The position numbers were made by a program, and so were the translations under genes. Positions 32,534 to 33,712 of a DNA stretch of 64,000 nucleotides are shown piece by piece; within the stretch, counting starts at the first letter, position 1, and every line of letters starts with the position of its first letter. This DNA comes from a phage. The stretch lies in the sequence record NC_100371.1; one strand, written 5' to 3'. The notes under the pieces are model-generated. The model did not search any database and was not told the origin of the DNA. It was given only the letters and a program-made list of their open reading frames with translations.

Positions 32534-32734
32534 ATGGGCAGATGTTCTAAAGGTGGCGATCCTGTAGTCAGATACGGTGACTGGCTAGAGGTATATGATC
32601 TTGGAGGTAAGCTAGTGTATGCCTCCAGGATCACCCAAGACATGTGCTCTGATATGTTTAACAGATACCTTGCATTTAAGGCCAACATAAACCCAGACGA
32701 AATTTCCAAAATTAAAACAAGGAGAGCTAAATAA
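32534..32734 (+). CDS. hypothetical protein
   Basis: 66-aa ORF. Confidence 0.3.
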   Translation: MGRCSKGGDPVVRYGDWLEVYDLGGKLVYASRITQDMCSDMFNRYLAFKANINPDEISKIKTRRAK

Positions 32735-33027
32735 TGCTAAAACTGTGCACTGCAAAGATTATTGCCGACAGCATTTCCGAGAAAGGTAAGCGTATCACCA
32801 CTTTTGAGCTAGAGTATCCTCGAATTATTCACTCAGAGCTTATGACACATCGAGTGTTCAGCCGAAACGCCATGTCTTCTCGTGCAGTTCCTGTCGGTAA
32901 GATGCTACAGCAGATCGTGGAGAATCCGGCAATGCCAGTTCGCTTCGGTGTAAATAAGCGAGGGATGGAAGATGGAACACGATCAAAAGATCCGTGTAGA
33001 GTATACCGACATGGAGTTAACTCCTGA
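32734..33027 (+). CDS. ThyX-like (flavin-dependent thymidylate synthase family) protein, N-terminal segment
   Basis: HSELMTHRVFSRNAMSSRAVP matches the ThyX RHRxxSxxxxS region but first Arg replaced by Thr; ORF ends in overlap with next ORF in +1 frame. Confidence 0.5.
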   Translation: MLKLCTAKIIADSISEKGKRITTFELEYPRIIHSELMTHRVFSRNAMSSRAVPVGKMLQQIVENPAMPVRFGVNKRGMEDGTRSKDPCRVYRHGVNS

Positions 33028-33712
33028 AGAGTTTTGGAAAGAAGCTGCAAAAAACGCCGCGTGGCATGCAGAGAAGTTCGCCCTTGCTGGTTACCATAAG
33101 CAAGTATGTAATCGCTTAGTGGAGCCGTTTCAGCGCATGAAAACAGTTGTAACAAGCACCGAGTGGAATAATTTTTTCCATCTGCGTTGCTGGCACGATG
33201 CTGATCCTACGATTCAGATGCTGGCTAATTGTATGTGGGATGCTCTTATGAATAGCGCTCCTGAAACCCTTAAACCAGGCCAATGGCACACCCCATATGT
33301 AGAGCACGTTTATTTGGACGGTGAGTTTAACTATGCCGTGCGTGACACAGAAGGGAAGCTATGCATTCTCGATACTGGAGAAGCTCTATCTATTAGTGCG
33401 AGCTGCTGTGCACAAGTATCTTATCGCAATATTGACAGCACGTTTGAAAAAGCAGATAGTGTGGCTAAAAAATTGATTGGTGGGGATCGTATTCATGCAA
33501 GCCCTTACGAGCACCAGGCGACACCTATGGATCACGATAATGCAATGGAACGTTTAAACTACTACCTGTCTTCATGTGAAATCACACAAGATAGTTGTGT
33601 TTGGCAGGAAGGTGTAACCCATCAAGACCGTGATGGTAAATTCTGGTCTGCCAACTTTTGTGGGTGGGTTCAGCACAGACAGTTGCTTAATAACCACTTC
33701 ATGAAAGGGTAA
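32972..33712 (+). CDS. ThyX-like protein, C-terminal segment plus extra domain (frame-shifted relative to 32734-33027)
   Basis: VEPFQRMKTVVTSTEWNNFFHLRCWHDADPTIQ resembles the ThyX C-terminal core; followed by about 150 aa of unknown function. Confidence 0.5.
   Translation: MEHDQKIRVEYTDMELTPEEFWKEAAKNAAWHAEKFALAGYHKQVCNRLVEPFQRMKTVVTSTEWNNFFHLRCWHDADPTIQMLANCMWDALMNSAPETLKPGQWHTPYVEHVYLDGEFNYAVRDTEGKLCILDTGEALSISASCCAQVSYRNIDSTFEKADSVAKKLIGGDRIHASPYEHQATPMDHDNAMERLNYYLSSCEITQDSCVWQEGVTHQDRDGKFWSANFCGWVQHRQLLNNHFMKG

What the first reader, a model, noticed from the sequence alone, without database searches (positions are those of the whole stretch)
32734..33712. Divergent ThyX-like gene split by a +1 frameshift, with altered substrate-binding motif and an extra C-terminal domain
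ORF 32734-33027 carries the ThyX core region but reads THRVFSRNAMSSRA where ThyX has RHRxxSxxExSxRY (first Arg replaced by Thr; RY lost). The ThyX C-terminal core (TEWNNFFHLRCWHDADPTIQ) continues in ORF 32972-33712 in the +1 frame, followed by about 150 aa not present in ThyX. This is either a sequencing error, a pseudogene, a programmed frameshift, or a repurposed ThyX-fold enzyme (for example a nucleotide-modifying activity rather than dTMP synthesis).
Basis: partly seen in the sequence, partly recalled or inferred. Interest (0 to 1): 0.55.

Follow-up and report, generated by a model that had tools for sequence, protein, structure and literature searches.

The report
Frameshifted, circularly permuted phage ThyX gene
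This is an rV5-like coliphage's flavin-dependent thymidylate synthase (ThyX-type) gene, broken in this one genome by a private 5-base deletion; its odd motif and 'extra' tail are normal traits of a large, rearranged ThyX subfamily, not signs of decay or of a new enzyme.

Summary
The two overlapping ORFs (32734-33027 and 32972-33712, +1 frame) are real. The window is a Vequintavirus (rV5-like phage), almost certainly vB_EcoM-ECP26. In every one of 101 related phage records covering the site, the gene is a single 984-nt, 327-codon CDS annotated as thymidylate synthase or ThyX. The window lacks 5 nt (GGTGG) after codon 81, and no other record or IMG/VR contig shares this junction. A programmed frameshift is therefore rejected. 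The split is a private lesion, either a true loss-of-function allele (favoured) or an assembly error.

Most catalytic residues are kept, but two phosphate-binding arginines are lost. The intact enzyme is most likely a genuine flavin-dependent dTMP synthase. The lesion is ordinary. The permuted architecture is modestly novel.

The parts
32734..33712 (+). Whole disrupted thyX-type gene. It is the orthologue of the 984-nt, 327-codon 'thymidylate synthase / FAD-dependent thymidylate synthase' CDS of ECP32, S127 BCL3, FFH2 and more than 100 other Vequintavirus records.
32734..33027 (+). 5' fragment ORF of 97 codons. Codons 1-81 are authentic and the last 16 are out of frame. The start overlaps the upstream ORF's stop (TAATG), and AGGAG lies 9 nt upstream.
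32845..32883 (+). ThyX motif region T38-H39-R40-V-F-S43-R-N45-A-M-S48-S49-R50. It corresponds to T. maritima R78-H79-R80..S83..N85..S88-G89-R90.
32974..32975 (+). Junction of the private 5-nt deletion: GAT[GGTGG]GGAAC becomes GATGGAAC. Its position is ambiguous within a 2-nt GG microhomology. The deletion shifts the frame after codon 81.
32972..33712 (+). 3' fragment ORF of 246 codons: Met followed by authentic residues 83-327. The deletion brings this ATG into frame, and GAGG lies 8 nt upstream of it.
33128..33262 (+). ThyX C-terminal helical core (residues 134-178). It includes N148 (Tm N169) and R153 (Tm R174).
33389..33523 (+). Relocated ThyX N-terminal segment (residues 221-265, SISASCCAQVSYR...HASPYEHQAT). 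It aligns to Tm ThyX residues 20-62 and carries S231 (S30), H256 (H53) and E261 (E58).
33524..33709 (+). Family-specific C-terminal tail (residues 266-327) with no detectable ThyX counterpart. It holds the invariant R317 and the near-invariant N309 and Q315.
31331..31933 (+). Upstream neighbour: deoxynucleoside monophosphate kinase (PHROG 139).
31939..32532 (+). Upstream neighbour: NT5C-type 5'(3')-deoxyribonucleotidase.
34510..36825 (+). Downstream neighbour: class I ribonucleotide reductase large subunit. In ECP32 it is followed by nrdB, glutaredoxin and nrdD/G.

Best explanation
The locus is the single thymidylate-synthase-type gene of a Vequintavirus (rV5-like myovirus, almost certainly phage vB_EcoM-ECP26). 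It lies in a nucleotide-metabolism operon with a dNMP kinase, a 5'-nucleotidase and ribonucleotide reductases.

The encoded protein belongs to a large, distinct subfamily of the ThyX/Thy1 superfamily in which the polypeptide order is circularly permuted. The segment that is N-terminal in canonical ThyX (two helices plus the H-x-x-P-x-E-H element that bind FAD) lies after the catalytic core, followed by a subfamily-specific tail.

Intact members most likely act as flavin-dependent dUMP-to-dTMP synthases, using FAD, methylene-tetrahydrofolate and NAD(P)H. This function is inferred, not shown.

In this genome a private 5-bp deletion (GGTGG, between GG microhomologies) after codon 81 shifts the frame. 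This leaves a 97-codon and a 246-codon ORF. The most likely reading is a genuine loss-of-function allele, tolerated because the E. coli host supplies dTMP through ThyA.
For: Cause of the split (shown):
- The alignment to ECP32, S127 BCL3 and FFH2 shows one 5-nt gap inside otherwise near-identical sequence.
- All 101 phage records covering the site score at most 93.3% over 70 nt, which equals 70/75, so none shares the deletion.
- There is no exact junction match in IMG/VR.

Genome quality (shown): in the 15-59.5 kb block aligned to ECP32, every other uncompensated indel lies outside annotated CDSs, apart from 1 nt in a 42-codon hypothetical ORF. The genome is therefore not riddled with errors.

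A second broken allele (shown): a metagenomic Vequintavirus contig carries an independent 68-nt out-of-frame deletion in the same gene.

Genome identity: BFVD holds a 97-aa and a 245-aa 'thymidylate synthase' from phage ECP26 that are 96% and 99% identical to the model.

Family size: 5041 cluster representatives at 50% identity, 2004 of them at E<=1e-30, mostly 290-350 aa.

Permutation:
- Residues 20-178 align to Tm ThyX 60-199, and residues 221-265 align to Tm 20-62.
- Re-permuting four members in silico gives one collinear, near-full-length Thy1 hit and adds about 15-17 bits in each. TIGR02170 scores rise by 12-17 bits.

Conserved equivalents of Tm residues (count out of 99): H79 99, R80 81, S83 92, N85 94, S88 98, R90 99, R147 99, N169 99, R174 99, S30 99, H53 99, E58 95.

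Cellular context: in two Eremiobacterota chromosomes the gene sits beside an M48 peptidase, with ilvC/ilvB/leuA in one of them.

No ThyA, DHFR or canonical ThyX is detectable in the full ECP32 genome.
Against: - No reads are available, so a 5-nt assembly or sequencing error cannot be excluded.
- No member of the permuted subfamily has, to my knowledge or in the searched library, been assayed.
- The protein scores far below the TIGR02170 thyX equivalog cutoff (39.7 against 87.9).
- Two dUMP-phosphate-binding arginines (Tm R74, R78) and FAD-contacting R165 are replaced family-wide by Ser/Ala, Thr and Thr, so the substrate or binding mode could differ.
- The permutation is shown by sequence profiles and secondary-structure order.
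Confidence: 0.55

Rival explanations
1. Sequencing or assembly artefact. The real phage carries the intact 327-codon gene, and the 5-nt gap arose during assembly or consensus calling in a G-rich stretch (GGTGGGG).
For: The deletion is unique among 101 related records and absent from IMG/VR. The flanking 6 kb is 99.8% identical to ECP32, from the same laboratory, with this as the only length difference. The site is G-rich.
Against: A 5-nt loss is not a typical homopolymer error. All other uncompensated indels against ECP32 avoid annotated coding sequence, apart from 1 nt in a 42-codon hypothetical ORF, as expected of an accurate genome under selection. An independent 68-nt deletion allele of the same gene exists in another data set, so real knock-outs of this gene do occur.
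Confidence: 0.3
2. The gene is split but still functional. The deletion brings ATG 32972 (GAGG 8 nt upstream) into frame, so both fragments are made and reassemble non-covalently into an active enzyme. The fragments would be residues 1-81 plus a 16-aa tail, and Met plus residues 83-327.
For: Between them the two ORFs retain every residue except G82. A Shine-Dalgarno-like GAGG precedes the new start.
Against: The break lies three residues after the invariant G77-M78 of the conserved 'NQxGMQ' element, inside a confidently modelled beta-meander (pLDDT 93-96), not in a floppy linker. No relative encodes the enzyme in two pieces. The 16-residue junk tail would have to be tolerated.
Confidence: 0.07
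3. Programmed +1 ribosomal frameshift or other recoding that yields a full-length protein from the two frames.
For: The two ORFs overlap by 56 nt in the +1 configuration.
Against: Recoding sites are conserved, yet none of the 101 relatives has two frames. All have 5 extra nucleotides and one ORF. By eye, no known +1 shift-prone motif and no long homopolymer for transcriptional slippage occurs in 32960-33027.
Confidence: 0.02
4. Family-level rival, independent of the lesion: the permuted subfamily is a repurposed ThyX-fold flavoenzyme. It might methylate or hydroxymethylate a different nucleotide such as UMP or dCMP, or act on a polynucleotide, rather than being a dTMP synthase.
Against: The uracil- and phosphate-contacting S88, R90, R147 and R174 and the FAD ligands are invariant or nearly so. 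The operon context is deoxynucleotide supply. It is the only TS candidate in the phage. It occupies housekeeping chromosomal contexts in Eremiobacterota. Vequintavirinae are reported 'exceptionally susceptible' to restriction-modification systems, which argues against modified bases (PMC8594841).
Confidence: 0.15

Closest known systems
Canonical flavin-dependent thymidylate synthase ThyX (e.g. Thermotoga maritima TM0449, PDB 1O26/1KQ4; PBCV-1 A674R, 2CFA/4FZB; M. tuberculosis, 2AF6)
   Different: The segment order is permuted: the canonical N-terminal 20-62 segment lies after the core. The protein is ~100 aa longer, with an inserted beta-meander (about residues 66-98) and a 60-aa tail. The first Arg of RHR is Thr. 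R74, R165, E86, Y91 and H178 are replaced. The score is below the TIGR02170 equivalog cutoff. No biochemical data exist.
PolB, ThyX-like UMP/dUMP C5-methylase of polyoxin biosynthesis (PDB 4P5A)
   Different: PolB is collinear with ThyX and sits in an antibiotic gene cluster. The phage protein is permuted and sits in a dNTP-supply operon.
Intein-containing phage ThyX genes (known from mycobacteriophages, PMC5050341)
   Same: The ~630-aa members of the permuted subfamily carry intein-like insertions exactly at or next to the T-H-R motif, for example MTHR|C...HN|CFSRNAMSSRA. Inteins typically target critical active-site motifs.
   Different: The window's gene has no intein. Its interruption is a simple 5-nt deletion.

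Membership tests
ThyX / Thy1 superfamily (Pfam PF02511) | Score above the Pfam gathering threshold (24.8 bits) | tested here: met
   The repaired or orthologous 327-aa protein scores 37.1 bits. The window's two fragments alone score 15.2 and 22.0 bits, both below threshold.
ThyX / Thy1 superfamily (Pfam PF02511) | ThyX three-dimensional fold | tested here: met
ThyX / Thy1 superfamily (Pfam PF02511) | ThyX motif R-H-R-x-x-S-x-x-x-x-S-x-R | tested here: inconclusive
   The sequence reads T-H-R-V-F-S-R-N-A-M-S-S-R. The His, both Ser and the last Arg are conserved in at least 92 of 99 members. The first Arg is Thr in 94 of 99, and the second Arg is kept in 81 of 99.
ThyX / Thy1 superfamily (Pfam PF02511) | Collinear domain order (N-terminal helices before the RHR core) | tested here: not met
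   Native proteins match only profile positions 60-190. Residues 221-265 align to Tm 20-62. In-silico re-permutation restores a collinear hit over profile positions 10/15-191 and adds 15-17 bits in 4 of 4 members.
TIGR02170 thyX equivalog (NCBIfam) | Score at or above the equivalog cutoff of 87.9 bits | tested here: not met
   39.7 bits natively, and 56.1 bits even after re-permutation.
Flavin-dependent thymidylate synthase (function) | Conserved FAD- and dUMP-contacting residues | tested here: inconclusive
   Kept: S30, H53, E58, H79, R80, S83, N85, S88, R90, R147, N169, R174. Lost: R74, R78, R165, E86, Y91, H178. Residue roles are taken from my knowledge of the T. maritima structures.
Flavin-dependent thymidylate synthase (function) | dUMP-to-dTMP activity with FAD, CH2-THF and NAD(P)H; complementation of thyA | not testable with these tools
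No paper on this subfamily was found.
Programmed ribosomal frameshift | Two-frame arrangement and shift site conserved among relatives | tested here: not met
   None of the 101 related records shares the arrangement. All have one ORF with 5 additional nucleotides.
Pseudogene (private loss-of-function allele) | Frame-disrupting lesion absent from orthologues, in an otherwise accurate genome | tested here: met
   Authenticity of the base calls themselves could not be tested because no reads are available.

The most novel reading that the evidence does not exclude
The gene's family is a circularly permuted lineage of flavin-dependent thymidylate synthase that I could not find described. It has thousands of members in phages. 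It is a chromosomal housekeeping gene in Eremiobacterota, and relatives also occur in MAGs assigned to Saccharimonadaceae, Patescibacteria and Limnocylindria.

In this lineage one chain rebuilds the ThyX active site with relocated FAD-binding helices. The nucleotide-phosphate-binding residues differ: R74 and R78 are lost, while K124, H187 and R317 are new invariants. This implies a different subunit arrangement and possibly a different substrate or inhibitor profile.
Probability: 0.45. Interest if true: 0.5.

Novelty: new variant of a known kind. Interest (0 to 1): 0.3.

Why it matters
The frameshift matters only for annotation. The two 'thymidylate synthase' CDSs of this phage should be flagged as one disrupted gene. 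The lesion also suggests that the phage ThyX is dispensable on a thyA+ host.

The broader point concerns the subfamily. The ThyX genes of rV5-like, PVP-SE1-like and many other phages, and of some uncultured bacterial phyla, form a permuted and strongly diverged group. This group fails the curated thyX equivalog model and lacks two canonical substrate-binding arginines. ThyX is an antibacterial drug target and a textbook case of alternative dTMP synthesis. A natural circular permutant with a rebuilt active site would therefore be a useful system for studying the fold's oligomer-dependent catalysis. It would also be a caution against transferring mechanistic detail or inhibitor data by annotation alone.

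Tried and rejected
- A single-sequence search of the intact protein against PDB sequences found nothing. Only the family profile reached ThyX.
- The search for related loci with the 99-sequence alignment failed because no stretch was conserved enough. It was repeated with a single protein.
- The afdb50 fold library was unavailable.
- Exact-sequence look-ups of the window's two fragment proteins found no record. Independent assemblies of the same phage could therefore not be compared.
- hhalign of the C-terminal tail (residues 266-327) against canonical ThyX, and of the C-part against the N-part, gave nothing significant. I found no support for the idea that the protein is a degenerate tandem duplicate.
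- The programmed-frameshift and transcriptional-slippage readings were rejected on conservation and on the lack of shift-prone sequence.
- The original ECP26 genome paper, and hence the sequencing platform, was not in the library.
- Literature searches for a permuted ThyX returned only irrelevant uses of 'permutation'.

Full report
**1. Observation**

The ORF listing confirms a 97-codon ORF at 32734-33027 and a 246-codon ORF at 32972-33712 in the +1 frame. They overlap by 56 nt (sequence). The first ORF contains THRVFSRNAMSSRA and the second contains TEWNNFFHLRCWHDADPTIQ. Each fragment alone hits Pfam Thy1 only below threshold, at 15.2 and 22.0 bits against a cutoff of 24.8.

The gene starts at a TAATG overlap with the upstream 66-codon ORF, and AGGAG lies 9 nt upstream of the ATG. 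The flanking genes are:
- a dNMP kinase (PHROG 139);
- an NT5C-type 5'-nucleotidase;
- downstream, nrdA, followed in relatives by nrdB, glutaredoxin and nrdD/G.

This is a deoxynucleotide-supply operon.

**2. Origin of the window and cause of the split**

Megablast places the window in the genus Vequintavirus (rV5-like E. coli myoviruses). 118 records cover at least 80% of the 1.6-kb query, and the best are ECP32, EduardKellenberger and S127 BCL3 at 99.5-99.6% identity. In all 30 records listed, the matched stretch is at least 5 nt longer than the query.

In ECP32, S127 BCL3 and FFH2 the gene is one 984-nt, 327-codon CDS. It is annotated 'thymidylate synthase', 'thyX' or 'FAD-dependent thymidylate synthase'.

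The alignment shows a single difference that matters: relatives read GATGGTGGGGAAC where the window reads GATGGAAC. This is a 5-nt deletion (GGTGG, GTGGG or TGGGG, ambiguous across a GG microhomology). It falls after codon 81.

The deletion is private to this genome:
- A 70-nt query centred on the junction matches 101 records. None exceeds 93.3% identity, which equals 70/75, so none shares the deletion.
- The exact junction is absent from IMG/VR.

Foldseek against BFVD returned a 245-aa protein (99% identical) and a 97-aa protein (96% identical). Both are named 'Thymidylate synthase [Escherichia phage vB_EcoM-ECP26]'. The published LysECP26 forward primer (PMC9728275) matches the window at 23949. 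The window is therefore almost certainly phage ECP26, deposited with this split annotated as two CDSs.

**3. Real mutation or error?**

No reads are available, so this cannot be settled. Three observations favour a real mutation.

First, the genome looks accurate. A whole-window BLAST against ECP32, read against the ECP32 annotation, covers a 15-59.5 kb block at 98.8% identity. Every other uncompensated indel in that block lies outside annotated CDSs. The one exception is 1 nt in an A-run at the end of a 42-codon hypothetical ORF. This pattern is expected of an accurate genome shaped by selection, not of an error-prone assembly.

Second, a 5-nt loss between 2-nt repeats is a typical slippage or microhomology deletion. 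It is not a typical platform error.

Third, a metagenomic Vequintavirus contig (ERZ16268165) carries an independent 68-nt out-of-frame deletion in the same gene (P0004). Knock-out alleles of this gene therefore recur.

I put a real loss-of-function allele at about 0.55-0.6 and an artefact at about 0.3.

A programmed frameshift is excluded for two reasons. The two-frame arrangement is not conserved (0 of 101 records). I also see no shift-prone sequence or long homopolymer in the overlap.

One curiosity remains. The deletion brings ATG 32972, with GAGG 8 nt upstream, into frame with the rest of the gene. The two ORFs together encode every residue except G82. However, the break lies three residues after the invariant G77-M78 and inside a confidently modelled beta-meander. 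I rate a functional two-piece enzyme as unlikely (about 0.07).

**4. What the gene encodes**

The intact protein passes Pfam Thy1 at 37.1 bits, but over profile positions 60-190 only. It scores 39.7 bits against TIGR02170 thyX, far below the equivalog cutoff of 87.9. It matches PHROG 85 'thymidylate synthase' at 1e-112. It has no single-sequence match in the PDB.

It belongs to a very large family:
- More than 7500 hits in the 90%-clustered database. All but one of the 120 listed are 313-347 aa; the exception is the truncated P0004.
- 5041 cluster representatives at 50% identity with E<=1e-3, of which 2004 have E<=1e-30. They are mostly 290-350 aa.

- T38 is Thr in 94 of 99 members.
- A51 is Ala in 99 of 99.
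- The C-terminal region contains the invariant residues S223, S231, H256 and R317.

**5. The 'extra' C-terminal domain is relocated ThyX sequence**

The family profile hits T. maritima ThyX in three pieces, in non-collinear order (chain numbering includes a 12-residue tag):
- profile 212-256 matches chain residues 31-73;
- profile 23-52 matches chain residues 73-102;
- profile 129-173 matches chain residues 167-211.

I then ran hhalign against an alignment of canonical ThyX. My recalled Tm sequence proved 100% identical to the PDB-derived entry. The results were:
- residues 20-178 align to Tm 60-199 (probability 92%, E 5e-7);
- residues 221-265 align to Tm 20-62 (probability 94%, E 9e-8).

As a direct test, I moved residues 185-262 in front of residues 20-180 in four members that are 37-49% identical to the phage protein. 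In all four, the partial Pfam hit became a single collinear hit over profile positions 10/15-191. Scores rose as follows:

| Member | Native (bits) | Re-permuted (bits) |
|---|---|---|
| P0001 | 37.2 | 54.2 |
| P0121 | 47.7 | 64.6 |
| P0142 | 31.4 | 46.6 |
| P0249 | 32.8 | 47.9 |

TIGR02170 scores rose similarly but stayed below the cutoff.

The AF2 model is confident (pLDDT 93.5, pTM 0.91). Its secondary-structure order fits the permutation: strand hairpin, catalytic helices, strands at 179-214, then two helices at 216-250 and the HASPYEH element.

The last ~60 residues have no detectable ThyX counterpart, and the N-part and C-part are not detectably similar to each other.

My conclusion is that this is a circularly permuted ThyX with N- and C-terminal additions. 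The evidence is at the sequence-profile level. A 3D superposition was not possible because I had no access to the model coordinates.

**6. Active-site inventory**

The mapping comes, and the counts (out of 99). Residue roles come from my knowledge of the T. maritima structures.

Kept:

| Tm residue | Members conserving it |
|---|---|
| H79 | 99 |
| R80 | 81 |
| S83 | 92 |
| N85 | 94 |
| S88 | 98 |
| R90 | 99 |
| R147 | 99 |
| N169 | 99 |
| R174 | 99 |
| S30 | 99 |
| H53 | 99 |
| E58 | 95 |

Replaced:

| Tm residue | Replacement in the family |
|---|---|
| R74 | Ser/Ala |
| R78 | Thr |
| R165 | Thr |
| E86 | Ala/Ser |
| Y91 | Ala |
| H178 | Asp/Ala |

New invariant residues are G77-M78, K124, H187, P189 and R317.

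The flavin- and uracil-contacting core is therefore intact, while part of the phosphate and FAD-pyrophosphate clamp has been re-engineered. This is the main reason for caution about the exact substrate.

**7. Evidence on function**

- The gene lies in a dNTP-supply operon.
- tblastn of E. coli ThyA, FolA and Dut (sequences recalled from memory) and of Tm ThyX finds nothing at E<=1 in the complete ECP32 genome. This gene is thus the only thymidylate-synthase candidate in the phage.
- The family is not confined to phages. A scan of species-representative genomes found it on megabase chromosomal contigs of several Eremiobacterota/Vulcanimicrobiota. It also occurs in MAGs assigned to Saccharimonadaceae, Patescibacteria and Limnocylindria, and in Burkholderia and Moraxella assemblies.
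- In two Eremiobacterota chromosomes the gene lies beside an M48 peptidase. One also has ilvC/ilvB/leuA nearby and the other has a xanthine-dehydrogenase-type operon. These are housekeeping contexts, not prophage contexts.
- Roughly 630-aa family members carry intein-like insertions exactly at or beside the T-H-R motif. Inteins usually target indispensable active-site motifs.
- The BASEL study reports that Vequintavirinae are 'exceptionally susceptible' to restriction-modification systems (PMC8594841). This argues against a base-modifying role.

Taken together, I rate ordinary flavin-dependent dTMP synthesis by the intact enzyme at about 0.65-0.7 and a changed substrate at about 0.15.

**8. 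Comparison with what is known, and novelty**

The gene is already annotated as ThyX or thymidylate synthase in more than 100 phage genomes. The lesion is an ordinary private frameshift.

What I could not find described is the permuted architecture of this subfamily. The relevant literature searches returned nothing on a permuted ThyX, though the library is incomplete.

I therefore classify the finding as a new variant of a known kind, with low-to-moderate interest overall (0.3). The frameshift alone would rate about 0.1. The permuted, arginine-swapped ThyX lineage would rate about 0.5 if confirmed structurally and biochemically.

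Noticed in passing
window 11772-12655 (- strand): An ~884-bp insertion absent from ECP32 splits the terminase large-subunit gene into a C-part (10650-11741) and an N-part with the Walker A motif (12652-13080). It matches Rfam group I intron RF00028 over the full model (47.9 bits against a gathering score of 50, E 8e-11). It carries a 196-aa Endonuclease VII-type homing endonuclease ORF at 11846-12436 (PF02945, 76 bits). This is probably a mobile group I intron in terL.
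   Followed up: partly
proteins P0126 and P0134 (about 630-640 aa; metagenomic homologues): Members of the permuted ThyX subfamily carry intein-like insertions with HNH or LAGLIDADG-like endonuclease regions. The insertions sit exactly at or next to the T-H-R motif (...MTHR|CLVGDT...VVHN|CFSRNAMSSRA).
   Followed up: partly
L030 68-667 (ENA ERZ16268165 scaffold_13172): A metagenomic Vequintavirus contig has an independent 68-nt out-of-frame deletion in the same thyX-type gene. It lies between CAGG/CAG microhomologies and truncates the product to 199 aa.
   Followed up: yes
L013 5968-6855 and L015 5992-6843, plus L012, L016, L021, L027: Eremiobacterota/Vulcanimicrobiota chromosomes encode 283-295-aa members of the permuted ThyX subfamily next to an M48 peptidase, in housekeeping surroundings. 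This may be their native thymidylate synthase. Whether thyA or canonical thyX is absent from these genomes was not tested.
   Followed up: partly
window 61031-61718, and window 56660-57720: The stretch 61031-61718 has no megablast counterpart in ECP32. The stretch 56660-57720 differs from ECP32 by several indels, including 12-, 5- and 4-nt gaps, in a region left unannotated in ECP32. The ORFs there are short and uncharacterised.
   Followed up: no
ECP32 record MK883718 (L004, L005, L031): Several functions are annotated as two adjacent CDSs with the same name: RNA ligase 1, MoxR ATPase, PhoH-like, sigma-54 modulation factor, Sir2 and anti-sigma factor. These may be further split genes or annotation artefacts in this phage group.
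   Followed up: no
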